A stretch of DNA of 29,121 nt, taken from assembly GCA_016791085.1 (NCBI GenBank), contig JAEUNN010000345.1, positions 1 to 29,121 on the forward strand, written 5' to 3'. Position numbers and translations under genes: made by a program. Below the pieces are notes generated by a model that searched no databases, had not been told where the DNA came from, and saw nothing but the letters and a program-made list of their open reading frames with translations. The first letter of the stretch is position 1, and each line of letters begins with the position of its first letter. The stretch comes from Rhodocyclaceae bacterium. GTDB taxonomy: Bacteria > Pseudomonadota > Gammaproteobacteria > Burkholderiales > Rhodocyclaceae. This document shows positions 9,926 through 27,703 of the stretch, piece by piece.

Positions 9926-9990
9926 TGGAGCGGGAGTCGAACCCGCGACCGGCCGTTTTCACGGCTGCTCTACCCGACTGAGCTATCCAG
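9926..9990 (-). ncRNA. tRNA-like module (cloverleaf-like, with GAAA-tetraloop hairpin in place of an anticodon arm). Candidate Y-RNA/YrlA-like or tRNA-mimic RNA.
   Basis: Minus-strand sequence: CTGGA-TA-GCTC-AGTCGGGTA-GAGC-A-GCCGT-GAAA-ACGGC-CGGTC-GCGGG-TTCGACT-CCCGC-TCCA. There is a canonical D-arm (GCTC/GAGC, loop with GG) and a canonical T-arm (GCGGG TTCGACT CCCGC). A 5-bp hairpin closed by a GNRA tetraloop sits where the anticodon stem-loop would be. The acceptor stem is only 4 bp (TGGA/TCCA), with no 3' CCA. It is followed by the hairpin GGTCC-GCAA-GGACC (plus 9909-9922). Confidence 0.45.
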
Positions 9991-12021: not shown

Positions 12022-12057
12022 ACGAAAAACGCGCCGGGGGGCGCGTTTTGCTGGAAC
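12022..12057 (+). terminator. Rho-independent terminator downstream of rtcR. It is bidirectional, with a T-run on the minus strand too, and would originally also have terminated tRNA-Ser.
   Basis: GAAAAACGCGCC-GGGG-GGCGCGTTTTGCTGG forms a perfect 10-bp GC-rich stem with a GGGG loop followed by TTTTG. On the minus strand the same stem is followed by GTTTTCT. It abuts the left copy of the 16-bp att repeat. Confidence 0.6.
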
Positions 12058-12073
12058 TTTGGCGGAGAGGGTG
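12058..12073. repeat. Left 16-bp direct repeat (att-like): TTTGGCGGAGAGGGTG, a duplicate of the tRNA-Ser 3' end
   Basis: Identical to 27609-27624. The right copy overlaps the last 14 nt of the intact tRNA-Ser at 27611-27703. Confidence 0.6.
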
Positions 12074-12206: not shown

Positions 12207-12720
12207 GTGGGGAACAAGGAGATGCGAGCCATGCCAGGCAAAGCAAAGGAACTCTCGGCCCTGGAAGTCTCCCGGCTTACCTCACCAGGTTTGTACGCGG
12301 CGGGGGTCGTCCCCGGTCTGCAACTCCAAGTGACGGCCACCGGAGCACGGACCTGGGTACTGCGAGTATGGGTCGCCGGCAGGCGCCGGGACATGGGGCT
12401 GGGAGGTTATCCCGCCGTGACCCTGGCCATGGCCCGGGAGAAGGCCCGGGAAGCCCGCGACAAGATCGACAGAGGAATTGATCCGATAGGGGAGCGTCGG
12501 GCCGCTCAGAGCACTCTACGCGCCGCCCGTGGTGCTGAGATCACCTTCGAGAAGGCCGCCCAACAGTTCATTGAGGCCAAATCGGCAGAGTGGCGGAACA
12601 CCAAGCACCGGGGCCAATGGGAAGCCACCCTGTCCACCTATGCCTTCCCCGTGATCGGCACCCTCCAGGTTCGGGACGTGGCCCTGCCTCATGTGGTACG
12701 CATTCACAGCCGCGAGATGC
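12207..12720 (+). pseudogene. Truncated P4-family tyrosine integrase. Only the N-terminal ~170 aa (arm-binding DUF4102-like and SAM-like region) is present. The ORF reads on to 13073 through unrelated sequence.
   Basis: N-terminus ...ELSALEVSRLTSPGLYAAGVVPGLQLQVTATGARTWVLRVWVAGRRRDMGLGGYPAVTLAMAREKAREARDKIDRGIDPIGERR...FPVIGTLQVRDVALPHVV is typical of P4-like integrase N-terminal domains. After ~12720 the translation loses all integrase character. No R..HxxR..Y catalytic-domain sequence exists in any frame before the next gene at 13203, and only ~380 nt are available. Confidence 0.65.
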
Positions 12721-13202
12721 CGGCAAGACGCGGTCACCAGGTGACGGCGCTGCTGCTGGGCGAACGGCTAGTCGGGCTCTACAACGGGTCCACCGGGAAG
12801 CAGGTGAATTTTGTTCGAGCCGATCCGCCGCTGCCCTGGCGACGATGCGACGCAGCCGCCGTAGCGGCGCCTTCGGCTGCCAGCATCGCAGCATTCGCAT
12901 TCACAGCGTGGCCCGCCGTGCTGGTCAGCTTGCCGCTCGCGTTGTTATGCCCACCGTTGGTGGTGACGGCGCGCTTCGCCTGGCGCTGTCGCACGCGGGC
13001 ACAGGTTGACCGTGCACTAGACATCGTGAAAGGCCACGATGTCGTGCCACCGCAACTGCGCCGGGTGAAGTAGCGCGACACGGCAGGCAGCGCGCCGCTT
13101 CGCTCTTTGGCTCCCCGCCGTAATGCGCGGGAATGTCGAAGGAATTGTCAGCTCATACATTTCTCTGATACATTTCCTCCGGAATCGACATTTAGGGTAG
13201 CC

Positions 13203-16200
13203 ATGGCCGACAATCTTTTCGCCGTCTGCGAACCACGCGCCGATGTTCTTCAAGGGGCACTGAAGGAGAGCGACTTCGCTGCTGATCTCTCCCAGGTGCT
13301 CCGCGGCGACGCCCCGGACGAGTACAAGAAACCCGAACTGTTCTTCGCGAACACCTACCCGACCAAGGGCCTGAAGAATGTCCTCAAGCTGGTCGCACTG
13401 CGCGTCCTCGGGAGGCCCGAGCAGGTCGGCGCCATCTTCCGCCTCGATACGCAGTTCGGCGGTGGTAAGACGCACACCCTCATCGGCCTCGCACATGCCA
13501 TGCGTGGTCTCGCCGGCGTCCCGAACGCCGATGAGTTCCTGGAGCCGGCCCTTCGCCCGAGCGAACCGATTCGCATCGCCGCCTTCGACGGCGAAAATGC
13601 AGACCCCACCAATGGACGCAGGTTGAGCGACTCCACCCGCGCATTCAGCCCCTGGGGTGAGCTTGCGTTTGCGCTCGCTGGCGAGGCGGGCTACAGGCTC
13701 GTCGAGCAGAGCGACAAGGAAGGCATCGCGCCCGGCGCCGATACCCTGCGTGAACTCCTGGGCACCGACCCGGCGGTCATCCTCATCGACGAAATCGCGC
13801 CCTATCTGCGCAAAGTCGCGGGTCGGAATACGCAGCGAGCCGGCGAGCAACTGCTGGCCTTCATGACTTCGCTGATGAAGGCGGTCGAGAGCCTGCCCAA
13901 AGTCGCTCTCGTCTTCACCCTAGCCGTTGGCCGTGACGGCAAGGCAACCGATGCCTACAGCCGCGAGACGCAGGACATCGCCGCCTTCTTCGCCGAAGCC
14001 GAGAGCGTGGCTGCCCGCAAGGCCACGGTCATCGACCCCACCGAGGACGACGAAACCGTCAAGGTGGTCTGTCGTCGTCTGTTCACTCGCATCGACGAGT
14101 CCAAGGCCAAGCAGGTCGTTGCGGCCTACAAGGCACTCTGGGACGCGAACCGCGAATCACTGCCCACGCCGCCGGCACAAGACCGTCGCGTGGAGGAGTT
14201 CGAGGCTGGCTACCCGCTGCACCCGGAGTTGGTGAAGCTCCTGACCCAGAAGACCGGCACGCTCGGCAACTTCCAGCGCGTGCGCGGCATGCTGCGGCTG
14301 CTGGCGCGCACCGTGGCGCAACTTTGGCAAACCCGGCCCGCCGATGCCTACGCCATCCACACGCATCACATCGACCTTGGTTTCGAGCCCATCCGCCTGG
14401 AGCTGGTCACGCGTCTCAAGCAGGACATCTACGTGCCGGCCATCAAGGCCGAGATCGCCGGCGTGGACCAGAGCTCCGCGCTGGCGGAGCAACTCGATGC
14501 GGGCGCCTTCAAGGGACTGCCAACCTACGGGTCCTATGTCGCGCGCAGTGTCTTCATGCACACACTCGCCTTCAACGACACCCTGCGCGGCCTGAATGCC
14601 GATGAGCTTCGCTACGCCATCCTCGGGCCGGCGACCGACATCGCCTTCATCGACGACGCCCGCAAGCGCTTCATCACCGACTCGGCATACCTCGACGACA
14701 AACCCGGCGCGCCGCTGCGCTTCCTGGCCGAAGCCAACCTCACGCAAATCATCCGGCGTGAGGAGACCAACGTCGACCGCGAAGAGGCCCGGTCGCGCCT
14801 CAATGCCTACATCCGCGACCTGTTCGCCGGCCCCAATCTAAACCTCGTGCCCTTCGCCGCCGGCCCGCACGACATTCCTGATGACGACGGCAGCGGGCGT
14901 CCCTATCTCGCCATGTTGAGCCACGATGCGGTGCAGGTGGTCGGCGATGCCGTCCGCGTTGATACCCTGGTAGAGAAAATCTTTCTTCACCGCGGGACAG
15001 GCAACGACTGGCGGCACAACCGCAACAATCTGGTGTTTGTGGTCGCCGATGCTTCAGGTATCCCGACCATGAAGGCGCGCATGTTGCGCCATTTGGCGCT
15101 CGAGTCGCTGCGCGTGCCAGGCAAGCTCAAGGACCTCGCCGACTACCAGGTCGCCAAGCTGAGCGAGGAGTTCGAGGTCTCGAAGCAACGCCTCGCCCTG
15201 GCGGTCCAGCAGTGCTACCGCCACATCTTCTTCCCCTCGCGCAATCGCGTCGAAGGCGCAAGCTGTGACCTGGCCCACACGGTGGTGGACATTCAGACAG
15301 CCTCGGACCGGCCGGGCGACGGGCAGAAGCAGGTCGTTACGCAGCTCCAGAACGTCAACAAGCTGCGCCTGCCCACCGACCAGCCGGACTCGCCGGTCTA
15401 CGTGCGCGACCGCACGCCGCTCAAGAAGGGGCAAATCACCACCGCCGCACTGCGCAACGAGTTCCGGCAGGACGCCTCCCTGCCGATACTCGTCGGCGAC
15501 GACGTGTTCATCAAGGGCATCCGCCAGGGCATCGACCAAGGCGACTACGTCTACAAGTCCGGCGACCTGCTGCGCGGCAAGGGGGACCCTCACGCCGAAA
15601 TCAAGGTCGACGAGCAGTCCTTCGTATTCACGACGTCGTACGCCGAAGACCACGGTATCTGGCCTCGCCCTGCGCCCACGCCGGCGCCAGCGCCCGCCGG
15701 CGGTGGCGCCTCACCCACCGGCGGACCCGCCTCGGCGCCTTACGGAGCGCCTGCCCCCGGGCCGGCTCCAGCGGCGAATGAGCCAGGTGTCGTCCAGGCC
15801 GAAGACGTGCTCAAGGCCGCGCTGAACCGCGTCTTCGAACAGGCGCGCAACAACGGTGTGCTTACCCTGGGCTCGATGACCATTCGCCCTTTCGACAAGG
15901 GTGACGCCCTCAAACTGATTCCACTGGTCAAATCGGTTCCAAACACCACCAAGCGCATCGAGCTGGAAGCGTCCTTCGAGACGCCGAGCAAGTCGGAAGC
16001 GAGTGTGGCCTTCAAGGGAGACCTCGACGATGCCGCGCCGCTGAAGGACTACCTCGAACCCCAGTTCCGTGCTGCCAGTGACAGCGACGCGAGCGTCACT
16101 TTCATACTGCACTTCGACCCGCCGCTGGCCGTCCAGGGCGCCAGTGCCGACGGCCTCGTCCAGCGCTTGACGCGTCTCGTGTCGCCAGTCGCTCATGTGC

Positions 16201-16229
16201 TCGCCACTGTCGCCGACAAGAAATCCTGA
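13203..16229 (+). CDS. Large P-loop ATPase, DUF499/COG1483-like (BrxC/PglY-like AAA+ ATPase), ~1008 aa, with a Pro/Ala-rich linker before a small C-terminal domain
   Basis: Start is called at MADNLFAV (ATG 13203). The upstream in-frame extension from 13107 is AT-richer, promoter-like DNA. Walker A: RLDTQFGGGKTHTLIGL. Walker B: AVILIDEIAPYL. The >1000-aa size matches DUF499-family ATPases that accompany DUF1156 methylases. Low-complexity PAPTPAPAPAGGGASPTGGPASAPYGAPAPGPAPA linker near the C-terminus. Non-host codon usage. Confidence 0.75.
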   Translation: MADNLFAVCEPRADVLQGALKESDFAADLSQVLRGDAPDEYKKPELFFANTYPTKGLKNVLKLVALRVLGRPEQVGAIFRLDTQFGGGKTHTLIGLAHAMRGLAGVPNADEFLEPALRPSEPIRIAAFDGENADPTNGRRLSDSTRAFSPWGELAFALAGEAGYRLVEQSDKEGIAPGADTLRELLGTDPAVILIDEIAPYLRKVAGRNTQRAGEQLLAFMTSLMKAVESLPKVALVFTLAVGRDGKATDAYSRETQDIAAFFAEAESVAARKATVIDPTEDDETVKVVCRRLFTRIDESKAKQVVAAYKALWDANRESLPTPPAQDRRVEEFEAGYPLHPELVKLLTQKTGTLGNFQRVRGMLRLLARTVAQLWQTRPADAYAIHTHHIDLGFEPIRLELVTRLKQDIYVPAIKAEIAGVDQSSALAEQLDAGAFKGLPTYGSYVARSVFMHTLAFNDTLRGLNADELRYAILGPATDIAFIDDARKRFITDSAYLDDKPGAPLRFLAEANLTQIIRREETNVDREEARSRLNAYIRDLFAGPNLNLVPFAAGPHDIPDDDGSGRPYLAMLSHDAVQVVGDAVRVDTLVEKIFLHRGTGNDWRHNRNNLVFVVADASGIPTMKARMLRHLALESLRVPGKLKDLADYQVAKLSEEFEVSKQRLALAVQQCYRHIFFPSRNRVEGASCDLAHTVVDIQTASDRPGDGQKQVVTQLQNVNKLRLPTDQPDSPVYVRDRTPLKKGQITTAALRNEFRQDASLPILVGDDVFIKGIRQGIDQGDYVYKSGDLLRGKGDPHAEIKVDEQSFVFTTSYAEDHGIWPRPAPTPAPAPAGGGASPTGGPASAPYGAPAPGPAPAANEPGVVQAEDVLKAALNRVFEQARNNGVLTLGSMTIRPFDKGDALKLIPLVKSVPNTTKRIELEASFETPSKSEASVAFKGDLDDAAPLKDYLEPQFRAASDSDASVTFILHFDPPLAVQGASADGLVQRLTRLVSPVAHVLATVADKKS

Positions 16230-16240
16230 GGAACTAGGCC

Positions 16241-16729
16241 ATGACTACTCGACGCGCGCATGTGGTCGCACTCCCCCGCAAGGCCGCCTCCGCACTGCCG
16301 CACTACGAGCTCCGCGCCAAGCGGCAGCGGGGCTCCGACATGGCCCTCGAAATCTGGCAACTGCCGGCAAGTGCGACGCCTCACATCAAACAGCCCACCT
16401 ATGTGGCGGGGCTGCACGGCCGTAACCTCTCGCTGGTTGAGCATCGCTTGCTGCGCCGCCTGAAGGCCGTGCGCATCAACCTCAACGATTTGCCGGCCAT
16501 CGACGCCTTGCGAGTCCCCATCGACGAGGAACTCGCCATCAACCTTGGCCTGCTTTTCCGTTCCCTGGCGCCGATGCGTAACCGTGACCACATGGCCGCG
16601 GTGGCGGCCGGCATCGAGGTCATGACCAAGGAAGAGGCCGGTTACTGGCTCGGCATGGCAATGCATCGCAAATATCCGCGCCGCGTGCTGATGGCACTGC
16701 GCTTCCTGCTCATCGAACCGACCCACTGA
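16241..16729 (+). CDS. Small conserved hypothetical protein (162 aa) between the ATPase and the COG2865 gene. Positionally equivalent to the DUF3780-type partner of DUF499/DUF1156 systems.
   Basis: GAGGAA 6 nt upstream of ATG. 12-nt gap after the ATPase stop and 7-nt gap before the next gene. Island codon usage. The family assignment is by position only and is not verifiable from sequence here. Confidence 0.45.
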   Translation: MTTRRAHVVALPRKAASALPHYELRAKRQRGSDMALEIWQLPASATPHIKQPTYVAGLHGRNLSLVEHRLLRRLKAVRINLNDLPAIDALRVPIDEELAINLGLLFRSLAPMRNRDHMAAVAAGIEVMTKEEAGYWLGMAMHRKYPRRVLMALRFLLIEPTH

Positions 16730-16736
16730 AGGTGGC

Positions 16737-18482
16737 ATGCGCGAACTGACTGAGGTCCGTGCGCTGCTGACGCGTCTCGACGAGGTCGAAGCGGATGCAC
16801 TGGAATCGCAGGACCTCGACTTCAAGGAGTGGCCCGCCGATCACCGGCATGCCATCCGGCTGGCAGTCGACATGGCGGTCTGCATGGCCAATGGTGGCGG
16901 CGGCACGGTTGTTCTGGGGGTGCGCGACCGTGTGGTCGGGCGCTCCCAGGCGATTCTCGGCGTCCCTGCGACCGCGGACCCGCACCAACTGAAGCGTGAC
17001 ATCTACGAACGCACCGCGCCGAAGCTCACTCCCGAGGTTGTGGAGCTTGCCGTCCCGGAGGGCACCGGGCGCCTGTTCTTGATGCAGGTACATGGCGGCC
17101 TGCCACCGTACACCACTACCGCCGGCGCCGGCACCGTCCGGCGCGGCAAGGACTGTGTGCCCCTCACCGGTGACCTGCGCGACCGCCTGATGGTCGAGCG
17201 CGGCGACTCGGACGTAACTGCCGTTGCCGTCGCAGAGCCGGTCGAATCGCTGCTGTCGGCCGCGGCGCTCGAACGGCTGCGCGACTTGGCCCGCCAGGAG
17301 CAGGCGCCGGCAGACATGTTGCGCAAGTCCGACCTCGATCTGCTCGGCGCGCTCGAAGTTCTGCGTGATGGCCGGCTCACCAAGGCCGGTCTGCTCATCG
17401 CCGGCAATGCCGACGCCATTGCTCGTCACCTGCCTAACTACTCATGGACGCACGAGCGCATGAAGAGCGCCACTGCCTACGTGGACCGCGCCGACGGGCG
17501 CGATACGCGAGAGCTCGCTCTGCCACTCGCCCTGCAGGCGCTCGAATCGCGCATCAACGCCGACAACCCCATCACCACCGTCGAGCACGGCCTGCATCAC
17601 TTCGAATTCCGCGCGTACCCCACGGTGGCGCTGCGCGAGGCGCTGCTCAATGCCTTGTGCCACCTGGACTTGCGGCTCGCCAGCCCAGTGCTGGTCAAGC
17701 AGTTCCCGCGCAAGCTCGAAATCAGCAACCCCGGCGGCCTGGTGGGCGGCATCACGCCGGCCAACATCCTTCACCACCCGCCGCTTGCGCGCAACCCCTT
17801 GCTGGTGCATGCACTGTCGAAGCTGCGCTTGGTGAACCGCAGCAATCTCGGCATTGGCCGCATGTTCGAGGCGATGCTCATCGAGGGCAAGGAGCCGCCG
17901 CTCATCGTCGATGAGGAAAGCGCCGTTCGCGTCGTTTTCAAGCGGCAGGAGACTTCAGCGTCGTTCCGCGAGTTCATCGCCGACGAAGGCAAGGCCGGCC
18001 GGGTGCTGGACGTCGACCACCTGCTGGTGCTGAGCTACCTGCTAGGGCATGGCGAGATCGACACGGCTGCGGCCGCAGAACTCTGCCAGCGGCGTGATGC
18101 CGAGATGCGCGACATCCTCGACGAAATGGTGCAGGTCTACGACTACCTGGAACGCGGCGGCGCCGGGCGCGGCACTTGGTGGCGCCTGAAGCCCGCCTTG
18201 CACCGGCGGCTTGAAGGCGCCGGCCATGCCGAGCGGGACCAGCGCATCGACATCGACGTGGCCAAGACCCGTGTGCTCAACATGCTGAAGCAACGGCAGC
18301 AGCGCGGGCAGGCGGGTCTGTCGAACGCCGAGGTTCGCGAGGTGACCGGCTACACACGACAACAGGTCAACCGGCTGATACACGAACTGGAAGCAGAGTC
18401 TGTGCGCATGGTTGGGCACGGACGCGGTGCCCGATACGAATACGTCGGCTCAGTGCCGGCAAAGAAGACCAAGAGTTCATGA
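16737..18482 (+). CDS. COG2865-type protein: N-terminal AlbA_2/Schlafen-like putative DNA-binding domain + HATPase_c_4-like domain + C-terminal HTH (581 aa)
   Basis: AAGGTGG RBS. The architecture (N-terminal ~120-aa Schlafen-box-like region VRALLTRLDEVEADALESQDLDFKEW..., central region ...LREALLNALCHLDLRLASPVLVKQFPRKLEISNPGGLVGGIT..., C-terminal ...LSNAEVREVTGYTRQQVNRLIHELEAES... HTH) matches the defence-island-associated 'predicted transcriptional regulator with Schlafen-like domain' family. The stop overlaps the methylase start (ATGATGA). Confidence 0.7.
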   Translation: MRELTEVRALLTRLDEVEADALESQDLDFKEWPADHRHAIRLAVDMAVCMANGGGGTVVLGVRDRVVGRSQAILGVPATADPHQLKRDIYERTAPKLTPEVVELAVPEGTGRLFLMQVHGGLPPYTTTAGAGTVRRGKDCVPLTGDLRDRLMVERGDSDVTAVAVAEPVESLLSAAALERLRDLARQEQAPADMLRKSDLDLLGALEVLRDGRLTKAGLLIAGNADAIARHLPNYSWTHERMKSATAYVDRADGRDTRELALPLALQALESRINADNPITTVEHGLHHFEFRAYPTVALREALLNALCHLDLRLASPVLVKQFPRKLEISNPGGLVGGITPANILHHPPLARNPLLVHALSKLRLVNRSNLGIGRMFEAMLIEGKEPPLIVDEESAVRVVFKRQETSASFREFIADEGKAGRVLDVDHLLVLSYLLGHGEIDTAAAAELCQRRDAEMRDILDEMVQVYDYLERGGAGRGTWWRLKPALHRRLEGAGHAERDQRIDIDVAKTRVLNMLKQRQQRGQAGLSNAEVREVTGYTRQQVNRLIHELEAESVRMVGHGRGARYEYVGSVPAKKTKSS

Positions 18483-21457: not shown

Positions 21458-21458
21458 C

Positions 21459-24400
21459 TTGCCACTGCTGACCGACTACGACTGGCGCAGCAAGTACGAC
21501 CCCGATGATGGAACACTCATCGAGCAGTTCTACCTGACCGCCCTTGCCTGCGCACAGCGCTACGACCGCACCACCGGCTATTTCAGCGCAACCGCGCTTG
21601 CTATCGCAGCACGCGGCATTGAAGGTCTCGTGCTCAATGCCGGCCGCATGCGCATGGTGGTGGGTTGCACGCTCGGGCAGCCGGAAGTGGACGCCATCGA
21701 GCAAGGCCAGTCGCTCAAGGACACCGTGGCCGGCATGCTGCTGGCCATGCCTCTGATTAGCACCAGCAAGGGCGATAAGGAGGCCCTTGAACTGATGGCC
21801 TGGATGGTTGCCAAGGGACACCTCGAAATCAAGGTGGCCGTGCCCTGCGACGAGAATCGCAACCCGGTCACGTCGAACGCCATCTTCCACGAGAAGACGG
21901 GTGTCATGGAGGACAAGACCGGTAACCGGCTTGCATTCGCCGGCAGCATCAACGAGACGGCCTACGGGTGGTTGCACAACTGGGAGAGCTTTCACGTCTT
22001 CTGCGACTGGGATGGCGGTACCAAGCATGTGGATGCCGAGGAGCGGACATTCGCGCAGTTGTGGGCCGACAAATCCAGGCGCGCAAAGGTGCTCGACGTG
22101 CCGGCGGCAGTACGGGAGGATCTGCTGCGCTTCATGCCGGCCGACGACCAGGAACCGGAACGGCTGAAACGCGCCCGAGCCGAGGGACCGGCGCCCGAGG
22201 TTACGAACACCGAGGGGACCAAGGCCACTCCCACCAGCCCGCGAGCCGGTGTCGACGAGACGCGCAAACAGGTCTGGAACACCATCTGGGGCGCCCCGCA
22301 ATTGCCCGGCGGTGAGCGCATCGCCGAGGTGACGAGTGCCATCACGCCGTGGCCCCACCAGGTGCGCGCGTTCGATCGCATGGTTGGCAACTGGCCACCC
22401 AGGCTGCTCATCGCCGACGAAGTAGGCCTGGGAAAGACCATCGAAGCGGGCATGCTGTTGCGTTACGCTTGGCTATCCGGCCGGGCGAAGCGCATCCTGG
22501 TGCTCGCCCCGAAGGCCGTGATGACGCAGTGGCAGATTGAGCTACGCGAGAAGTTCAACCTCAACTGGCCGATCTACGACGGCAAGGCGCTCAATTGGTA
22601 CCCGTCTCCGCTGATGAAGGGGCACCAGGAACGCGACGCTTCGCGGGACGATTGGCACCGAGAGCCTTTCGTCATCGCCTCGAGCCACTTGATGCGTCGG
22701 CGAGACCGGCAGCGCGAGCTGCTCGAGGTTGCCGAGCCGTGGGACCTGATCGTTCTGGACGAGGCGCATCACGCTCGGCGCAAGAGCCCTGGCGCGACCA
22801 AGGAAGGACCGCCCAACCTGCTGCTGCAATTGATGCAGAAGCTGAACGCGCGGACGCAAGGGCTGCTGCTGTTGACGGCGACGCCGATGCAGGTGCACCC
22901 GGTGGAAGTGTGGGACCTGCTCGTCCTGCTGGCCATGCCGGCTGCGTGGTCGCGGGGTGCCTTTCTGGAATTCTTTCGCAAGTCCGGCGACGGCAATCCG
23001 TCGCCCGAGGACTTCGAGATGCTGGCGGCGCTGTTCCGTGCAGCCGAGGCTGCGTTCGGCACGATGCCGATGGACGTCGCGGTGCGGCGCACGGCAGGCA
23101 AGAGCCGCCTCAAAGCGCAGAAGGTACTGCGTGCGCTGCGCGACACCGCTGCCACGCCGCGGCGGCAGCTCTCCGCCGAGGAACGGCGCAGTGCCGTGGC
23201 CATCATGCGTGCCCACACGCCAGTGGCTGGCCTGATTTCCCGCCATACGCGCGACCTGCTGCGCGAATACCACCGCCGCGGAATGATAGCCTCGCCTATC
23301 GCCAACCGGATGGTAGTCGACGAGTTCCTCGACATGACGAAGGTCGAGGAGGAGGTGTACGGGGCGCTGGAGGACTACATCTCCACGACCTATAACAACG
23401 CCGCCCAGGACAAGCGCAGCGCGGTTGGCTTCGTGATGACCACCTATCGCAAGCGCTTGGCATCAAGCTTCTACGCGCTGCGCAAGACGCTTGAGGAACG
23501 GCTCGGCGTAGTCGCCGGGCAGGCGAGCTTGCCGTTCGATCAGCTTCGAACCGCCGAAGACGCCGAGGACGACGAGGACGAGAGCGGCGACCAGGCCGAT
23601 GACGACGTCGTGGCGGCGCAGAAGCTTGTCGCCCTCAACCTGGAGGAGAGCGGCGAGATTGAGCGGTTGTTGGCCCAAGTTCGCCGTCTGCCGGTGGACA
23701 GCAAGGCCATCCGCCTGGCGGAGGTACTGCGCTCGCTGCAGGCTGGCAGCTTCCATGCGATGGACAACACGCTGCTGCCACCGTACCCGCAGGCCATCGT
23801 GTTCACGCAGTACACCGATACGCTCGACTACCTGCGCGACTACCTGAAGGGCGAGGGCTTCTCCATCCTGTGCTATTCAGGGCGCGGCGGTGAATGGTTG
23901 CTGCCGGACGGGCGGTGGAAGAACTTGTCACGTGAGGAGACCAAGAGGCGATTCCGTCGTGGCGATGCCCAGGTGCTGGTCTGTACCGACGCGGCGGCCG
24001 AAGGCCTGAACTTCCAGTTCTGCGGCGCGCTCATCAACTTCGATTCTCCATGGAACCCCATGCGGGTGGAGCAGCGCATCGGCCGTGTCGACCGGCTGGG
24101 CCAACGCTTCGAGCGCATCGCCGTCGTGAACCTGATGTACGAAGACACGGTTGAGACCGATGTGTACCGGGCTCTGCGCACGCGCATCAACTTATTCACC
24201 GCCGTGGTCGGGCGGCTGCAGCCGATTCTTTCGACGATGCCGCAGCGCATCGCCGCCGTGGCATTAACCGGCCCGGACGGGCGTCAGCAGGCAAGAGCGA
24301 ATCTCATCTCCCACCTTCAACATGAAGCGGCGGCACCTGCACCGGAGTCGTTCGATATCGACGACGCCATCGACGCGGCGCTCGAGATGGGCGACAGGCC

Positions 24401-24680
24401 TCCCGCGCCGTACGACCTGGAAGACCTCGGCCGCCTGCTCGACCACCAGAAGCTGCTACCGCCGGGATGCGAAGCCCAGCGGGCCAACTCGAAGGACGTG
24501 TTCTGGATTCAGCCCGGCGCGCCCAAGGTGGCGGTGACCACAGATCCCGAGTTCTTCGAAGAGCATGCTGACTCGCTGGAGTTCTGGACGCCGGGAAGCC
24601 CAGCGTTCCCCGGCCCAAGCCTCTCGGAAGGCTTCACGGCCGAACCGGTGCGCTTGAGCGAACTGCTGCGCTCTTCATGA
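21459..24680 (+). CDS. PLD-family nuclease domain fused to SNF2/SWI2-family helicase (~1073 aa), TTG start
   Basis: The ORF tracker starts at 21228, overlapping the methylase by 230 nt. In-frame TTG at 21459, with GAGG 7 nt upstream and 1 nt after the methylase TGA, is the likely start (LPLLTDYDW...). The N-terminal region has a PLD HKD-type motif FHEKTGVMEDKTGNRLAFAGSIN (H-x-K-x4-D ... GSxN). SNF2 helicase motifs: I LLIADEVGLGKTIEAG, II LIVLDEAHHARR, V-VI VLVCTDAAAEGLNFQFCGALINFDSPWNPMRVEQRIGRVDRLGQ. Confidence 0.85.
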   Translation: MPLLTDYDWRSKYDPDDGTLIEQFYLTALACAQRYDRTTGYFSATALAIAARGIEGLVLNAGRMRMVVGCTLGQPEVDAIEQGQSLKDTVAGMLLAMPLISTSKGDKEALELMAWMVAKGHLEIKVAVPCDENRNPVTSNAIFHEKTGVMEDKTGNRLAFAGSINETAYGWLHNWESFHVFCDWDGGTKHVDAEERTFAQLWADKSRRAKVLDVPAAVREDLLRFMPADDQEPERLKRARAEGPAPEVTNTEGTKATPTSPRAGVDETRKQVWNTIWGAPQLPGGERIAEVTSAITPWPHQVRAFDRMVGNWPPRLLIADEVGLGKTIEAGMLLRYAWLSGRAKRILVLAPKAVMTQWQIELREKFNLNWPIYDGKALNWYPSPLMKGHQERDASRDDWHREPFVIASSHLMRRRDRQRELLEVAEPWDLIVLDEAHHARRKSPGATKEGPPNLLLQLMQKLNARTQGLLLLTATPMQVHPVEVWDLLVLLAMPAAWSRGAFLEFFRKSGDGNPSPEDFEMLAALFRAAEAAFGTMPMDVAVRRTAGKSRLKAQKVLRALRDTAATPRRQLSAEERRSAVAIMRAHTPVAGLISRHTRDLLREYHRRGMIASPIANRMVVDEFLDMTKVEEEVYGALEDYISTTYNNAAQDKRSAVGFVMTTYRKRLASSFYALRKTLEERLGVVAGQASLPFDQLRTAEDAEDDEDESGDQADDDVVAAQKLVALNLEESGEIERLLAQVRRLPVDSKAIRLAEVLRSLQAGSFHAMDNTLLPPYPQAIVFTQYTDTLDYLRDYLKGEGFSILCYSGRGGEWLLPDGRWKNLSREETKRRFRRGDAQVLVCTDAAAEGLNFQFCGALINFDSPWNPMRVEQRIGRVDRLGQRFERIAVVNLMYEDTVETDVYRALRTRINLFTAVVGRLQPILSTMPQRIAAVALTGPDGRQQARANLISHLQHEAAAPAPESFDIDDAIDAALEMGDRPPAPYDLEDLGRLLDHQKLLPPGCEAQRANSKDVFWIQPGAPKVAVTTDPEFFEEHADSLEFWTPGSPAFPGPSLSEGFTAEPVRLSELLRSS

Positions 24681-24696
24681 CTCGGGCCGACGAGCA

Positions 24697-26079
24697 ATGA
24701 CAACCTCTGACGACAAGAAGCTCACCGACCGGCAACTGCTCGGCAGCCAGGGCACCAGTCTCATTGATCTGGTCGTATCAAGAATGGGTTTTGTCTGGCG
24801 ATCGACGGCACAGCACGACGCGGGTATCGACGGCGAGATTGAAGTCAGGGACCCGTCGACTGGCCGCATGACGGGCCTGCTCATCAAGGTGCAGAGCAAG
24901 GCGGTCTCGACCTTCGCTAACGAGACCGACGAGAGTTTCGACTACTGGCCGGAAGAGCGCGACATGCGCTACTGGCTGGGCCACAACCTGCCCGTCATCT
25001 TGGTCGTGTCCCAACCTGCGACAGGAAGCATCTACTGGCTCCCGGTGCGGGAGCAGACCTCCTCAGCAAACTCTAAGCGCTTCCACTTCCTCAAGGCCAG
25101 CGACCGCCTTGACGAGGGAGCCCGGGGGCGACTGATTCAGTTGGCGCAGAGCGCTGGCCAGGGCGCGGTGGCTCCGGCGCTGGCGAAGCACGAGCAGTTA
25201 ATCAGCAATCTGTTGCCGGTCGTCCGGCTGCCCGATCGCCTGTACCTGGCGGAAACGAAATTTCGGAGTGGCAAGGAGATTGGCGACCTGCTGAGGGAAA
25301 TGAACCAGCGGGCCGACACTGAAACCACGACGGGCGCAAGGACCGTTCGTCCCGAGCTACGCGTCGAATTCGTGCTCAAGAACAAGCGCATTCTGACTGT
25401 TCGCGACCTCACCGACCCGCGCTATGAGTTCCTGTGCGACCGTGGAACCGTGGAGGACTTCCCCACATCCGAGTGGGCCCTCGCAGCGGACGCGGAAAAG
25501 CAACGTGACTTCGTGCACCTCCTGAACCAGTGCCTCCGAGAGATGCTTCGCGGCATGCCGGAGCATCTGTGGTTCGACCGCGGTGCGAGGTGCTTCTTCT
25601 TCCCTCCGTCACGCGACCGGAAGCCTTACGACTACGCGTACCGCGGCGCCAAGAAGGAGACGGTCCGAGAGGTGTTCAAGGAGCGCATCAACAAGAGCAA
25701 AGGCCACGTCATGGGCTACCGACATAGCGCGATGATTGCCCAATTCTACCGGTACGACGGGTCGTGGTACCTCGAAGTGACACCTACCTACTTCTTCACC
25801 AAGGACGGCGCCCAGAAGAGCAAGTGGCACGAAGAATGGCTGAAGGGCATCAAGGAACTTGAGAAGAACCAGGCAGTGCGCGGCCAGCTTCTCATGTGGG
25901 CCGACCTACTGGTGGAGGTCCCGGACCTCCTTAGTGATGGGTATCCGTTCCTGAGGTTCGGTCCGCCGACTACGTTCTCGACCGAGCGCGGGATCGACGA
26001 TACGGCATGGGCGGCCTCTGACTCGAGCGGAAAATCGGGGATTCCCGATGGCACCGCTCCACTGTTCGAGCTGCTCTGA
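24697..26079 (+). CDS. DUF4365 (DREN, PD-(D/E)xK-like nuclease) domain protein, 460 aa. Candidate DREN-APAZ partner of a short prokaryotic Argonaute (SPARDA-like).
   Basis: N-terminus LGSQGTSLIDLVVSRMGFVWRSTAQHDAGIDGEIEVRD...GLLIKVQSKAV...HNLPVILVV carries the D-GID-x-E ... VQSK pattern of DUF4365/restriction-endonuclease-like fold. The ~300 residues after the nuclease domain are compatible in size with an APAZ domain; APAZ identity is not verifiable by eye. The stop overlaps the downstream start (TGATG). Confidence 0.55.
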   Translation: MTTSDDKKLTDRQLLGSQGTSLIDLVVSRMGFVWRSTAQHDAGIDGEIEVRDPSTGRMTGLLIKVQSKAVSTFANETDESFDYWPEERDMRYWLGHNLPVILVVSQPATGSIYWLPVREQTSSANSKRFHFLKASDRLDEGARGRLIQLAQSAGQGAVAPALAKHEQLISNLLPVVRLPDRLYLAETKFRSGKEIGDLLREMNQRADTETTTGARTVRPELRVEFVLKNKRILTVRDLTDPRYEFLCDRGTVEDFPTSEWALAADAEKQRDFVHLLNQCLREMLRGMPEHLWFDRGARCFFFPPSRDRKPYDYAYRGAKKETVREVFKERINKSKGHVMGYRHSAMIAQFYRYDGSWYLEVTPTYFFTKDGAQKSKWHEEWLKGIKELEKNQAVRGQLLMWADLLVEVPDLLSDGYPFLRFGPPTTFSTERGIDDTAWAASDSSGKSGIPDGTAPLFELL

Positions 26080-27527
26080 TGAAGTTTGAATACCTCGACG
26101 AGCCGGAACTGGAGTTTGGCGGCCTGCGTCGTCACATCGACATTCGGCAAGGGCTGACACTCTTTGGCCCTCTGGATGCGGACGCCGAACGACCCCGTCG
26201 GATTCGACTTGGTTTGGTTGGCACGCAGCAGACCGTGGACGGTATCGTGCAGTGGTTGGAACGCTGCCGCGGCGGCGTCGCAGCGAAGGCGAGCCGACAA
26301 CCAAATCTGTTTCCTGCGTTCCCTGGGTTTGGTGCCGAGTCGGCTTTCAGGACCGAATTCGACATCGACCAGTCGCTCGTGCGCGCCTTGTCGAGTCGCG
26401 AAGTCGCCCGAATTGCCGCGCTGCCCCACTACACAGCGCTGGCTGAGGCGGAGCAGGTTCTCGAGGGGGAGGTCCAGGCCATCAGCGAGAAAGCCCGTCC
26501 CGACGTGGTTATCGTGGCGTTGCCTGCCGAACTGGTCGCTTTGGAGGATGAAGAAGAGGTTGAGGCGACCGCGGAGTTCGCATCCGAGAAGGACCAGTTG
26601 GACTACGAGACCAACATCGATCTGCGCCATATGCTCAAGGCCAAGGTGATGCGGTTCAATCAGCCGATTCAGCTAGTGTTGCCGCAGACCTATGATGAGC
26701 GAGCCAAGGGCAAGACAAGCAAGAAATCCGGCAAGCGGAGGCTTCAGGACGAAGCGACGCGCGCCTGGAACTTCCATACGGCGCTCTGCTACAAAGCCAA
26801 CCATCGTCTGTGGCGGATTGTCCGAAACGCTGCCGATCTGCACACCTGCTTCGTTGGCATTAGCTTCTATCGCTCGCTGGATCAAGCCAACCTGATGACA
26901 AGCATGGCGCAGGTCTACGACGAGCGCGGCGAGGGTGTGATCGTTCGAGGCAAAGCGGTTGAGCTGTCGAAGGACGACCGTCAGCCCCATCTCTCGAATG
27001 ACGATGCGTGCGCATTGCTGGCATCAGCGTTGAGCGAGTACCGACGCGAGCACAAGCATCCACCGGCACGCGTCGTACTGCACAAGAGCTCTTCCTACAA
27101 CCAGTCGGAACTCGATGGATTCAACGCGGCCGTCGACTCGCAAGGGCTGGATTCGGCCGATTTCCTCGTGGTGTCCAAGTCCTTCAGCCGCCTATACCGC
27201 GATGGTCGGTATCCACCGCTGAGGGGCACGATGCTGACGCTTGATGACAGAACGCACTTGCTGTACACGCGGGGCAGCGTGCGCTACTACGCCACGTATC
27301 CAGGCATGTACGTGCCGAGACCATTGAAGTTCCAGATGGCACAAGCCGACGGTAGCGCTCGCCAGGCAGCGGAGGAACTGCTTGCCCTGACCAAGCTCAA
27401 TTGGAACAACACCCAATTCGACGGTGGCCTGCCCATCACGATGCGCGTGGCGCACGAGGTTGGGAAGGTGTTGAAGTATGTGCCGGATGGCGGCGTCGTG
27501 CAGCCGCGGTACAGCTTCTACATGTGA
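26079..27527 (+). CDS. Candidate short prokaryotic Argonaute (MID-PIWI, catalytically inactive), 482 aa
   Basis: Size, translational coupling to an upstream DUF4365-containing ~460-aa protein, and PIWI-like C-terminal features (VVLHKSSSY...FLVVSKSFSRLYRDG, an RDG-type motif) fit SPARDA/SPARTA-type operons. Assignment is by architecture and is not verified by alignment. Confidence 0.45.
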   Translation: MKFEYLDEPELEFGGLRRHIDIRQGLTLFGPLDADAERPRRIRLGLVGTQQTVDGIVQWLERCRGGVAAKASRQPNLFPAFPGFGAESAFRTEFDIDQSLVRALSSREVARIAALPHYTALAEAEQVLEGEVQAISEKARPDVVIVALPAELVALEDEEEVEATAEFASEKDQLDYETNIDLRHMLKAKVMRFNQPIQLVLPQTYDERAKGKTSKKSGKRRLQDEATRAWNFHTALCYKANHRLWRIVRNAADLHTCFVGISFYRSLDQANLMTSMAQVYDERGEGVIVRGKAVELSKDDRQPHLSNDDACALLASALSEYRREHKHPPARVVLHKSSSYNQSELDGFNAAVDSQGLDSADFLVVSKSFSRLYRDGRYPPLRGTMLTLDDRTHLLYTRGSVRYYATYPGMYVPRPLKFQMAQADGSARQAAEELLALTKLNWNNTQFDGGLPITMRVAHEVGKVLKYVPDGGVVQPRYSFYM

Positions 27528-27565
27528 CAACCAACCACTTCCCGGATAGTGGGCTTGGTAGTGGC

Positions 27566-27597
27566 GTAAATAAAAAACGCGGCCTGAATGCCGCGTG
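27566..27597 (-). terminator. Rho-independent terminator for tRNA-Ser (minus strand). It may also terminate the island operon on the plus strand, where the T-run is weak.
   Basis: Stem ACGCGGC/GCCGCGT (27577-27583 / 27590-27596) with loop CTGAAT. On the minus strand it is followed by TTTTTTATTTAC. It lies just inside the island's right end, immediately 3' of the tRNA. Confidence 0.55.
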
Positions 27598-27608
27598 TTT
27601 ACTAGGTG

Positions 27609-27624
27609 TTTGGCGGAGAGGGTG
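27609..27624. repeat. Right 16-bp direct repeat (att-like) TTTGGCGGAGAGGGTG, overlapping the tRNA-Ser 3' end
   Basis: Perfect copy of 12058-12073. Includes the CCA-end and 3' acceptor strand of the tRNA. Confidence 0.6.
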
Positions 27625-27703
27625 GGATTCGAACCCACGTGCCGGTGTTACCCGACCATCCGATTTCGAGTCGGCGCCGTTATGACCGCTTCGGTACCTC
27701 TCC
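27611..27703 (-). tRNA. tRNA-Ser (anticodon CGA), type II with long variable arm, encoded CCA
   Basis: Minus strand: GGAGAGG-TA-CCGAAGCGGTCATAACGG-CGCCGA-CUCGAAA-UCGGA-long variable arm-CGTGGGTTCGAATCCCACC-CCTCTCC-G-CCA. 7-bp acceptor stem. Anticodon loop CU-CGA-AA. T-loop TTCGAAT. ~93 nt. Confidence 0.9.

What the first reader, a model, noticed from the sequence alone, without database searches (positions are those of the whole stretch)
13100..27600. Two distinct defence systems packed as one apparent ~14.4-kb, seven-gene transcription unit
From the ATPase start (13203) to the putative Argonaute stop (27527), all seven genes are on the plus strand. Intergenic distances are 12, 7, -4, 1, 16 and -1 nt. 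Two start codons overlap upstream stops, and the TTG start of the helicase sits 1 nt after the methylase TGA. No internal terminator hairpin or AT-rich promoter-like gap is visible. The only promoter-like AT-richer stretch is 13107-13200, just upstream of the ATPase. The only strong hairpin with a T-run is after 27527. Co-transcription and translational coupling of a methylase-based system with a short-pAgo abortive-infection system would be an unusual regulatory linkage between self/non-self discrimination and suicide-type immunity.
Basis: seen in the sequence. Interest (0 to 1): 0.6.

Follow-up and report, generated by a model that had tools for sequence, protein, structure and literature searches.

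The report
Restriction-type operon carrying an Argonaute module
A mobile 14.4-kb block in a Rhodocyclaceae genome joins a methylation-based restriction system (Hma) to two suicide-type modules (a Schlafen protein and a short-Argonaute SPARDA pair), apparently behind one promoter; this is a new example of a layout already described for such systems, not an oddity.

Summary
Seven intact plus-strand genes run from 13203 to 27527, with gaps of 11, 7, -4, 1, 16 and -1 nt.

They form three modules, not two:
- an Hma / BREX-related restriction system: DUF499 ATPase, DUF7680, DUF1156 DPPY methylase, PLD-Snf2 helicase;
- an embedded Schlafen-GHKL-wHTH gene;
- SPARDA (DREN-APAZ plus short pAgo) appended 16 nt after the helicase gene.

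Related contigs with unrelated flanks share the block exactly from a conserved promoter (13145-13174, TTGTCA-18-TACATT) to the pAgo stop codon. Hma and SPARDA genes show equal synonymous divergence and dN/dS of 0.02-0.18, so they have evolved as one unit. I found no internal promoter or terminator signal. Co-transcription is therefore likely but not shown.

The hairpin after 27527 has its T-run on the minus strand. It terminates tRNA-Ser, next to which the block sits in a roughly 15.5-kb island with a decayed integrase.

The linkage is not unusual. Embedding of other defences in Hma, BREX and type I RM operons is published. SPARDA is separable: close Hma relatives lack it or carry a broken copy.

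Less expected is that SPARDA cassettes elsewhere sit just after hsdR, brxL or a type IIG gene, or inside Hma.

The parts
12058..12073 (.). Left copy of the 16-nt direct repeat TTTGGCGGAGAGGGTG. It is a displaced 3' end of tRNA-Ser (att remnant), preceded by a minus-strand terminator at 12026-12049.
12207..12716 (+). Remnant of a P4-type tyrosine integrase. Only the Arm-DNA-binding and core-binding domains are present; there is no catalytic domain. It is fused in frame to the next ORF.
12717..13073 (+). Conserved 118-aa ORF with a hydrophobic stretch, shared only with L091. Mismatches are biased to third codon positions. It lies upstream of the operon promoter.
13144..13202 (+). Conserved 5' regulatory region: -35 TTGTCA (13145-13150), 18-nt spacer, TG-extended -10 TACATT (13169-13174), ACATTT repeats, and SD AGGG. 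It marks the 5' edge of the block shared by relatives that have unrelated flanks.
13203..16229 (+). hmaC: DUF499 AAA+ (ORC/Cdc6-type) ATPase, 1008 aa. Walker A GGGKT is inferred from the L091 orthologue (96% identical); Walker B is ILIDE.
16241..16729 (+). DUF7680 protein, 162 aa. It is present between hmaC and hmaB in every related locus examined, in the position of MtsB in MANTIS.
16737..18482 (+). Schlafen(AlbA_2)-HATPase_c_4(GHKL)-wHTH protein, 581 aa. It is an accessory effector or regulator sitting in the DUF7680|hmaB slot and is specific to the betaproteobacterial clade.
   Evidence: PMC12839542 section 35
18479..21457 (+). hmaB: DUF1156 N6-adenine DNA methyltransferase, 992 aa, with DPPY at residues 562-565. 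Its dS is much higher than that of its neighbours, which indicates allele exchange.
21459..24680 (+). hmaA: N-terminal PLD/HKD nuclease (H144-x-K146...D152...G162-S-x-N165) fused to a RapA-like Swi2/Snf2 helicase, 1073 aa, TTG start.
24681..24696 (+). 16-nt hmaA-DREN junction. It is 15-19 nt long in all SPARDA-carrying relatives and shows no structure beyond shuffled controls.
24697..26079 (+). DREN(DUF4365)-APAZ effector of SPARDA, 460 aa, with D45, Q66 and K68 conserved.
26079..27527 (+). Short prokaryotic Argonaute (MID+PIWI only), 482 aa. The start overlaps the DREN-APAZ stop by 1 nt.
27577..27596 (-). GC-rich hairpin with a T-run on the minus strand: the terminator of tRNA-Ser. It might act bidirectionally. 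It is not part of the conserved block.
27609..27703 (-). tRNA-Ser(cga) at 27611-27703, together with the right copy of the 16-nt direct repeat at 27609-27624.

Best explanation
The block 13144-27527 is a horizontally mobile, composite defence operon. It sits in the remains of a tRNA-Ser-integrated island.

Core system. The core is an Hma / BREX-related restriction system with the four-gene layout of MANTIS. By homology to MANTIS:
- the AAA+ ATPase HmaC, probably helped by the small DUF7680 protein, loads the N6-adenine methylase HmaB onto short asymmetric sites;
- methylation marks self DNA;
- unmethylated invader sites recruit the PLD-Snf2 motor-nuclease HmaA, which cuts the DNA.

Grafted modules. 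Two abortive-infection modules have been added to this operon:
- a Schlafen-GHKL-wHTH protein in the variable slot between DUF7680 and hmaB;
- SPARDA at the 3' end. By homology to solved SPARDA complexes, the short pAgo loads small RNA guides and recognises complementary invader DNA. The complex then polymerises, and this switches on the DREN collateral nuclease.

Expression and action. All seven genes are most likely transcribed from the single conserved sigma70-type promoter at 13145-13174, with overlapping or near-abutting stop and start codons. The layers probably act independently: restriction first, then suicide-type back-up for invaders that escape or inhibit restriction. Joint transcription would give co-inheritance on mobile elements and low, matched expression of a toxic effector.

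Status of the steps.
- Shown: gene identities, motifs, block boundaries, co-divergence, purifying selection.
- Inferred: co-transcription, all biochemical activities, layered action.
For: Identity of the parts.
- Pfam, PADLOC, NCBIfam and PDB matches.
- Motifs present: HmaA H144/K146/D152/GSxN; HmaB DPPY and HmaC Walker B; DREN D45/Q66/K68 invariant in 28 homologues. These match D41/Q60/K62 of NbaSPARDA (PMC12205087).

One unit.
- The same seven-gene order occurs in at least four unrelated flanking contexts.
- Homology starts at the promoter (window 13144) and ends at the pAgo stop (27527).
- The promoter TTGTCA-N18-(TG)TACATT is conserved in all betaproteobacterial-clade loci, at 78-96% HmaC identity. 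Its -10-region motif has no further close copy (0-1 mismatch) elsewhere in the window.
- dS is alike for HmaC, DUF7680, SLFN, HmaA, DREN and pAgo: 0.36-0.50 against L081, and 1.2-2.0 against L085/L094. dN/dS is 0.02-0.18.
- The junction is 15-19 nt in all carriers.
- No promoter or terminator consensus lies inside the block.
- Synonymous variation does not dip at the 3' end of hmaA.
- The junction has no structure beyond shuffled controls.

Mechanism by homology.
- MANTIS: bioRxiv 10.64898/2026.09.23.753747.
- SPARDA: PMC12205087.

The pattern is known.
- Embedding in Hma, BREX and RM: bioRxiv 10.1101/2024.01.29.577857.
- Schlafen-kinase-wHTH and other back-up nucleases in BREX and BR loci: PMC12839542.
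- My own sample shows Septu, a TIR protein, a PIN pair, a GmrSD-like protein and an HTH-M78 protein in the same slots.
Against: - No transcript data exist. A promoter that does not resemble the sigma70 consensus could lie inside the 3' end of hmaA. The synonymous-site test has few sequences and little power.
- SPARDA is separable. HmaA relatives at 74-90% identity lack it (L092, L093, L095-L099, L104, L107). L089 has it broken by a rearrangement while Hma stays intact.
- Most SPARDA loci are autonomous. Only 9 of 73 have a same-strand gene within 40 nt upstream, and three plasmid loci have no RM gene upstream.
- The Hma proteins score far below the NCBIfam equivalog cut-offs for the Gao_RL/MANTIS proteins. 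DUF7680 is not DUF3780 by sequence. Transfer of the MANTIS mechanism is therefore by analogy.
- The window is a MAG contig, so expression and activity in the organism are unknown.
Confidence: 0.6

Rival explanations
1. Adjacency without shared regulation. SPARDA is an autonomous two-gene cassette that landed next to hmaA and keeps its own promoter inside the last codons of hmaA. The tight spacing would reflect only compaction of cargo on mobile elements.
For: - SPARDA works alone in heterologous hosts (PMC12205087).
- Most SPARDA loci have their own upstream region.
- Close Hma relatives lack SPARDA or carry a broken copy.
- SPARDA has slightly lower GC and GC3 than the hma genes: 0.60-0.61 against 0.63-0.66 for GC, and 0.74-0.79 against 0.78-0.82 for GC3.
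Against: - Only 16 nt separate the genes.
- No promoter-like hexamers lie in hmaA.
- Synonymous sites at the hmaA 3' end show no extra constraint.
- The stand-alone relatives' conserved AT-rich leader is absent here.
- The only conserved non-coding element of the block is the 5' promoter.
Confidence: 0.2
2. Direct functional wiring. SPARDA would not be merely a second layer but would depend on, or guard, the restriction system. It might be held inactive by Hma and released when a phage anti-restriction protein disables Hma, as PrrC is by EcoprrI. Alternatively, Hma activity might feed or bias pAgo guide loading.
For: SPARDA lies tightly downstream of the last gene of methylation-based systems in independent lineages:
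- hsdR in L001 and L034;
- an Eco57I-like type IIG enzyme in L024;
- brxL in L058;
- hmaA here.
It also lies inside Hma in L031, L046, L049 and L060. The PrrC precedent is cited.
Against: - The same slots take many unrelated defence modules, so no SPARDA-specific tie is needed.
- SPARDA is active alone.
- There is no fusion or shared domain between SPARDA and Hma proteins.
- The count of tight junctions is small (12 loci) and has no matched control.
Confidence: 0.15
3. Decaying relic. The block is a non-functional remnant of a dead genomic island, so its organisation has no present regulatory meaning.
For: The integrase is truncated. A relative carries a disrupted SPARDA.
Against: All seven ORFs are intact and keep their catalytic motifs. 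dN/dS is 0.02-0.18 over dS up to about 2.
Confidence: 0.03

Closest known systems
Hma systems with embedded defence genes (Payne et al., bioRxiv 10.1101/2024.01.29.577857; PADLOC Hma)
   Same: - HmaC, HmaB and HmaA profile matches: E 5e-94, 2e-71 and 6e-57.
- Extra same-strand genes lie between the hma genes.
- Other defence modules occupy the same slots in relatives.
- Co-regulation by embedding has already been proposed.
   Different: - SPARDA here is appended after hmaA rather than nested.
- pAgo is not discussed as an embedded partner in that text.
- DUF7680 behaves as a constant fourth core gene, not as variable cargo.
MANTIS / Gao_RL, i.e. type-2 BREX-related (BR) system (bioRxiv 10.64898/2026.09.23.753747; PMC12839542)
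   Same: - Four-gene order: DUF499 AAA+ ATPase, small protein, DUF1156 N6-MTase, N-terminal HKD/PLD + Swi2/Snf2 helicase.
- One HKD motif per protomer.
- A DPPY methylase.
   Different: - The small protein is DUF7680, not DUF3780, with no detectable sequence relation.
- All three large proteins score far below the Gao_RL equivalog cut-offs: 172/1200, 246/1000 and 361/1100 bits.
- A Schlafen gene is inserted and SPARDA is appended.
SPARDA (short pAgo + DREN-APAZ; NbaSPARDA and relatives, PDB 9jsb, 9qbp, 9qbl)
   Same: - Full-length matches of both proteins to solved SPARDA chains: E 1e-102 to 1e-107 for the pAgo, and 2e-43 to 2e-54 for DREN-APAZ.
- Effector-then-pAgo order with overlapping stop and start.
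- DREN catalytic D/Q/K conserved.
   Different: There is no leader or promoter region of its own. The cassette starts 16 nt after the stop of a 1073-aa helicase-nuclease gene and has co-diverged with it.
PrrC anticodon nuclease embedded in the EcoprrI type I R-M operon
   Same: A suicide-type effector encoded in the same operon as a methylation-based restriction system.
   Different: PrrC binds EcoprrI and is silenced by it; no such interaction is known or indicated here. PrrC lies between hsd genes, whereas SPARDA lies at the 3' end.
BREX with embedded BrxU/GmrSD (plasmid pEFER) and other BREX/BR 'back-up effector' loci (PMC12839542, section 35)
   Same: A methylation-based system with extra nucleases in the same operon. 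Schlafen-kinase-wHTH is listed there as a frequent partner (at least 1017 taxa).
   Different: No PglZ or BrxL is present here. Argonaute, PIWI, APAZ and DUF4365 are not mentioned in that paper or in its held supplements.

Membership tests
SPARDA | Short pAgo consisting of MID + PIWI only (about 480 aa) | tested here: met
   The 482-aa protein aligns end to end with solved SPARDA Argonautes 9qbp_B, 9qbl_B and 9jsb_A (E 1e-102 to 1e-107). PADLOC pAgo_I scores 1e-171.
SPARDA | Partner protein with an N-terminal DREN (DUF4365, PD-(D/E)XK) nuclease and a C-terminal APAZ domain, encoded immediately upstream | tested here: met
   Pfam DUF4365 covers residues 18-150. PADLOC Aga_REase-PNTD1-PNTD2 scores 4e-145 over residues 6-446. 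PDB DREN-APAZ chains match. The stop and start codons overlap by 1 nt.
SPARDA | DREN catalytic residues (D41, Q60, K62 in NbaSPARDA) | tested here: met
   D45, Q66 and K68 are invariant in 28 homologues and align with D/Q/K of 9qbp_A. The residue roles come from PMC12205087.
SPARDA | RNA-guided recognition of DNA that triggers filament assembly and collateral nuclease activity | not testable with these tools
   This needs biochemistry or in vivo assays.
Hma (PADLOC) / BREX-related (BR) DUF499-centred systems | DUF499 AAA+ ATPase, DUF1156 N6-adenine methylase and Swi2/Snf2 helicase in one same-strand locus | tested here: met
   Searches give the profile matches. DPPY and Walker B are seen. The RapA-like helicase is seen.
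BR type 2 = MANTIS / Gao_RL | [quoted passage not shown] | tested here: met
   H144-E-K146...D152...G162-S-I-N165. PLDc_2 covers residues 135-202. PADLOC PLD_Helicase scores 9e-72 and PbeA N-terminal matches start at residue 4.
BR type 2 = MANTIS / Gao_RL | Stand-alone DUF3780 (MtsB) gene within the locus | tested here: not met
   [not shown]
BR type 2 = MANTIS / Gao_RL | Equivalog-level similarity to the Gao_RL proteins (NCBIfam NF042962, NF042963, NF042964) | tested here: not met
   Scores are 172, 246 and 361 bits against cut-offs of 1200, 1000 and 1100. The proteins are homologous but belong to a different clade.
BREX (types 1-6) / BR type 3 | PglZ phosphatase-like protein (and BrxL or an iSTAND partner) | tested here: not met
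   None of the seven proteins matches PglZ or BrxL in Pfam or PADLOC.
DISARM | DrmA helicase plus DrmB (DUF1998) core | tested here: not met
   Only the helicase gives DrmD and DrmA-like partial matches. There is no DUF1998 protein.
Single operon (polycistronic transcription unit) | One promoter, no internal terminator, and a transcript spanning all junctions | tested here: inconclusive
   Sequence and comparative data agree with one unit. No RNA data are available.
tRNA-integrated genomic island | Direct repeat of the tRNA 3' end at both borders plus an integrase gene | tested here: met
   A 16-nt exact repeat lies at 12058-12073 and 27609-27624; the right copy overlaps the 3' end of tRNA-Ser. 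The integrase is present but lacks its catalytic domain, so the island is probably immobile now.

The most novel reading that the evidence does not exclude
SPARDA cassettes may be selectively recruited to the 3' end, or the internal slots, of methylation-based restriction operons (type I R-M, type IIG, BREX, Hma) because the two are functionally wired. SPARDA would act as a guard that fires when restriction is inhibited or bypassed, or its guide loading or expression would depend on the restriction operon. The Rhodocyclaceae block, which has co-diverged as a unit to dS above 1, would be the clearest case.
Probability: 0.15. Interest if true: 0.65.

Novelty: new member of a known kind. Interest (0 to 1): 0.35.

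Why it matters
The block is a natural, compact three-layer defence cassette: restriction, a Schlafen protein and a short Argonaute. It has one conserved promoter and clean borders, so it can be cloned as it stands. That makes it useful for testing whether embedded or appended abortive-infection modules are merely co-inherited with restriction systems or cooperate with them.

The recurrence of SPARDA directly after hsdR, brxL, a type IIG gene and hmaA suggests a rule for where short-pAgo cassettes settle. That rule has not been stated in the papers I could read.

The data also indicate that Hma systems of this clade have four core genes. DUF7680 takes the place of MtsB, which links Hma to the MANTIS mechanism.

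Tried and rejected
- Classification as BREX or DISARM: rejected. There is no PglZ/BrxL and no DrmB.
- Strict MANTIS membership: rejected. Scores fall below the equivalog cut-offs, and the small gene is DUF7680 rather than DUF3780.
- Search for an internal promoter:
  - the sigma70 scan found none;
  - the motif TGATACATTT has no further close copy (0-1 mismatch) in the window;
  - synonymous variation does not dip at the hmaA 3' end.
  These results are negative but of low power.
- 16-nt exact copy of the terminator stem-loop inside hmaC (14586-14601): it does not complete a hairpin there, so I judged it chance.
- Megablast of the block against PLSDB plasmids: no match.
Whether SPARDA there is inverted or partly deleted therefore stays open.
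- My first HKD regular expression (HxK-x4-D) missed the motif, which has five residues between K and D.
- The idea that SPARDA always travels with R-M genes: rejected by three plasmid loci and by most of the 73 genome loci.


Full report
**Source.** The window is a complete 29,121-bp contig of a MAG labelled 'Rhodocyclaceae bacterium'. Exact protein look-ups return MBL8482087-MBL8482101.

**Check of the observation.**
- ORF listing and direct reading confirm seven uninterrupted plus-strand genes from 13203 to 27527.
- The gaps are 11, 7, -4, 1, 16 and -1 nt.
- The helicase starts at TTG 21459, one base after the methylase TGA. A strong Shine-Dalgarno sequence (AAGAGGAGG) lies inside the end of the methylase gene.
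- A longer ORF from ATG 21228 is not supported. Profile matches begin at residue 4 of the TTG form, and relatives are called at 1073 aa.
- The consensus scan finds sigma70-like sites only at 13145-13174 and 13185-13214.
- The scan finds no terminator-like site at any junction. The total of 12 sites on both strands equals the shuffled expectation of 12.9.
- The hairpin after the last gene (27577-27596) is real, but its T-run is on the minus strand. It is the terminator of tRNA-Ser(cga), 27611-27703 on the minus strand. On the plus strand its tail is only GUUUACUAGG.

**What the genes are.**
- 13203-16229 is a DUF499 AAA+ ATPase (PADLOC HmaC, 5e-94).
- 16241-16729 is a DUF7680 protein.
- 16737-18482 has Schlafen AlbA_2, HATPase_c_4 and a MarR-like wHTH.
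- 18479-21457 is a DUF1156 N6-adenine methylase (HmaB, 2e-71) with DPPY at residue 562.
- 21459-24680 is an N-terminal PLD nuclease with one HKD motif (H144, K146, D152, G162-S-x-N165) fused to a RapA-like Swi2/Snf2 helicase.
- 24697-26079 is DREN(DUF4365)-APAZ.
- 26079-27527 is a short pAgo.
- The last two align over their full length with solved SPARDA complexes 9qbp, 9qbl and 9jsb.
- The DREN residues D45, Q66 and K68 are invariant in 28 homologues. They correspond to the catalytic D41, Q60 and K62 of NbaSPARDA (PMC12205087).

**Placement in the literature.**
- DUF499-DUF1156-helicase loci are the 'Hma' systems of PADLOC. They are also the 'BREX-related (BR)' systems of PMC12839542.
- BR type 2 has an N-terminal HKD on the helicase and a small stand-alone DUF3780 gene. 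It equals Gao_RL, now called MANTIS.
- For MANTIS, ATPase- and MtsB-dependent loading of the methylase, hemimethylation of asymmetric 6-bp sites, and restriction by the PLD-helicase MtsD have been shown or proposed (bioRxiv 10.64898/2026.09.23.753747).
- The window system has the same four-gene layout, but it is a different clade.
  - The NCBIfam Gao_RL equivalogs score 172, 246 and 361 bits against cut-offs of 1200, 1000 and 1100.
  - The small gene is DUF7680, not DUF3780.
- An AlphaFold model of DUF7680 (pLDDT 79.5) has four strands and five helices. This is the composition published for DUF3780.
- In about 60 related loci that hold both hmaC and hmaB, a DUF7680 gene always lies between them. 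It is therefore a core component, not cargo.

**Is it one unit? Arrangement and borders.**
- Close relatives from metagenomes carry the same seven-gene order in unrelated surroundings.
  - L081-L084 are followed by a dienelactone hydrolase gene.
  - L085 is followed by RepC/RepA-like/ParA genes.
  - L086 is preceded by KfrA-like and IS66 genes.
  - L091 and L094 also carry the arrangement.
- Pairwise nucleotide comparison shows homology beginning at window 13144 and ending at 27527, or 27536 in L081. That runs from the promoter to the pAgo stop codon.

**Is it one unit? The promoter.**
- The 60 nt before hmaC are the only conserved non-coding stretch.
- They hold -35 TTGTCA, an 18-nt spacer, a TG-extended -10 TACATT, and repeated ACATTT.
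- The stretch is conserved in every betaproteobacterial-clade locus (78-96% HmaC identity) although the sequence further upstream differs.
- The -10-region motif (TGATACATTT) has no further close copy (0-1 mismatch) elsewhere in the window.

**Is it one unit? The junction and divergence.**
- The hmaA-DREN spacer is 15-19 nt in all carriers.
- It has no structure beyond shuffled controls (z = 0.24).
- Synonymous variation in the last 40 codons of hmaA (0.32) lies within the range for the gene (0.27-0.54, mean 0.39). Nothing suggests an embedded conserved promoter, but the test is weak.
- Nei-Gojobori estimates give dN/dS of 0.02-0.18 for all seven genes.
- dS is alike for HmaC, DUF7680, SLFN, HmaA, DREN and pAgo: 0.36-0.50 against L081, and 1.2-2.0 against L085 and L094.
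- So the Hma and SPARDA parts have diverged together since before these lineages split.
- Only hmaB stands out, with dS of 1.1-3.2 and an unalignable stretch around 18712-19124. Exchange of methylase alleles would explain this.

**Separability.**
- HmaA relatives at 74-90% identity with 1-10 kb of downstream sequence have no SPARDA: L092, L093, L095-L099, L104 and L107. In L092 a SEFIR/TIR-NTPase gene follows after about 900 nt.
- In L089 only the first 310 nt or so of the DREN gene remain. They are joined to an inverted piece of the pAgo 3' end, while all hma genes are intact.
- Many relatives have an extra 375-381-aa gene of unknown family between hmaB and hmaA. The window, L081 and L091 lack it.

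**The slots.**
- At 50-60% identity the operon is the four-gene core.
- Two positions, DUF7680|hmaB and hmaB|hmaA, hold varied inserts:
  - Septu PtuA-PtuB (L136);
  - a TIR protein, PDC-S35 (L149);
  - an unknown protein with a PIN protein (L151, L155, L168, L169);
  - GmrSD-like enzymes, HEC-05-like (L110, L111);
  - an HTH-M78 peptidase (L126).
- This is what Payne et al. described. In that study 62.7% of 1,485 Hma systems carry embedded genes, and 22.8% of embedded genes are known defences. Embedded genes share the orientation of the host system in 96.7% of cases, and the authors suggest co-regulation (bioRxiv 10.1101/2024.01.29.577857).
- PMC12839542 (section 35) lists Schlafen-minimal kinase-wHTH proteins as back-up effectors linked to BREX and BR loci in at least 1017 taxa.
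- Neither text mentions Argonaute partners.

**SPARDA seen from its own side.**
- I scanned one genome per species and kept the best 80 of 232 SPARDA loci.
- In four of them the pair lies inside an Hma operon, after DUF7680 and before hmaB: L031, L046, L049 and L060.
- Their pAgos fall in at least two lineages. L060 is only 56-58% identical to the others, and the nearest relatives of L031/L046/L049 (L032, L037, L039) show no Hma.
- In L046 and L049 minus-strand genes separate SPARDA from hmaB, so strict co-transcription of the whole locus is not general.
- Among 73 loci with enough upstream sequence, only 9 have a same-strand gene ending within 40 nt of the DREN start.
- Of the 12 tight neighbours (within 60 nt), seven belong to methylation-based restriction-type operons:
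  - HsdR in L001, an hsdM-hsdS-hsdR operon on a Tn7-like element. This is the closest stand-alone relative of the window's SPARDA (66% and 79% identity);
  - HsdR in L034;
  - an Eco57I-like type IIG enzyme in L024, overlapping by 4 nt;
  - BrxL in L058;
  - a DEAD/ResIII helicase of unassigned system in L040;
  - DUF7680 of Hma in L046 and L049.
- L002 and L003 have a type I and an MmeI-type system within 2-4 kb.
- Ryazansky et al. (PMC6299218) had already listed HsdS, methyltransferase, type III restriction and Schlafen orthogroups among 'pAgo operon' proteins.
- Three plasmid-borne SPARDA loci show no R-M neighbour.
- The pattern is therefore a recurrent minority arrangement. I have no matched control for its frequency.

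**Genomic setting.**
- A 16-nt exact direct repeat (TTTGGCGGAGAGGGTG) lies at 12058-12073 and 27609-27624. The right copy overlaps the 3' end of tRNA-Ser.
- Each copy is followed, on the minus strand, by a terminator hairpin (12026-12049 and 27577-27596).
- Between the repeats lie an integrase remnant and the defence block. The integrase remnant (12207-12716) has the arm-binding and core-binding domains only.
- Homology with L091 begins at 12706. There the integrase reading frame continues in frame into a conserved 118-aa ORF (12717-13073). Its mismatches are biased to third codon positions: 19, 14 and 38.
- The block thus appears to have replaced the integrase 3' part and the former cargo of a tRNA-Ser island of about 15.5 kb.
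- Flanking genes are chromosomal: PEP carboxylase, an MCP, RtcR and SerRS.

**Interpretation.**
- The best reading is a mobile composite operon: a MANTIS-like Hma restriction system, with a Schlafen module embedded and SPARDA appended, driven by one conserved promoter.
- The layers probably act independently.
- Rival readings are an internal SPARDA promoter (0.2), direct guard-type wiring (0.15), and a dead relic (0.03).
- Nothing here requires a new mechanism.
- The new elements are:
  - the identity of the appended partner (a complete short-pAgo system);
  - the evidence that it has co-diverged with its host operon;
  - the repeated appearance of SPARDA at the 3' end of other restriction-type operons;
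  - the status of DUF7680 as a fourth core Hma gene.

Noticed in passing
window 12058-12073 and 27609-27624; 12207-13073: The block lies in a roughly 15.5-kb tRNA-Ser island bounded by a 16-nt direct repeat. The integrase keeps only its N-terminal 170 codons (12207-12716). These are fused in frame to a conserved 118-aa ORF with a hydrophobic stretch (12717-13073), which is shared with L091.
   Followed up: partly
window 9926-9989 (- strand): Rfam reports a tRNA-like match (39.2 bits, model positions 4-67 of 71) that ARAGORN does not call. It lies between rtcR (10323-11930, +) and a divergent SPFH/Band-7 gene (8527-9879, -). It might be a tRNA-like or Y-RNA-like element of an Rtc locus.
   Followed up: no
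window 18479-21457 (hmaB), especially 18712-19124: The methylase gene has dS of 1.1-3.2 where its neighbours have 0.3-0.5 (L081, L091) or 1.2-2.0 (L085, L094). It also has a stretch that does not align at the DNA level. This suggests exchange of methylase or specificity alleles within an otherwise co-diverging operon.
   Followed up: partly
L085 5636-6763; L086 18215-19360; L089 15458-16603; also L093, L094, L101: A 375-381-aa gene with no Pfam or PADLOC match lies between hmaB and hmaA in many close relatives. It is absent from the window, L081 and L091.
   Followed up: partly
L089 19833-20257 (and L090): SPARDA is disrupted in this lineage. The first 310 nt or so of the DREN gene are joined to an inverted fragment of the pAgo 3' end (window 27487->27374), while all hma genes remain intact. 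Whether this is an inversion or a deletion could not be read, because the locus ends there.
   Followed up: partly
window 13144-13202 and the same region in L086-L107: The conserved promoter region contains AATGTCA ... ATACATTT ... TGATACATTT ... GACATTT. It occurs only in the clade that also carries the Schlafen-GHKL-wHTH gene. The wHTH domain could be an autoregulator that binds these repeats.
   Followed up: no
L001 1143-12771 (Azonexus MAG JAVHPH010000004.1): A TnsD/TniQ gene, an Mrr-like gene, hsdM-hsdS-hsdR and SPARDA all lie on one strand. DREN-APAZ starts about 10 nt after the hsdR stop. This is a Tn7-like element carrying an R-M plus SPARDA operon.
   Followed up: partly
L136 5001-7057; L149 5351-6046; L110/L111 (L111 5236-7125); L151, L155, L168, L169: Other defence modules sit in the Hma slots: a complete Septu (PtuA-PtuB), a TIR protein (PDC-S35), GmrSD-like enzymes, and an unknown protein paired with a PIN protein.
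   Followed up: yes
window 14586-14601 and 27578-27593: A 16-nt exact copy of the terminator stem-loop sequence (CGCGGCCTGAATGCCG) lies inside hmaC. It does not form the full hairpin there and is probably chance.
   Followed up: partly
[not shown]
   Followed up: partly
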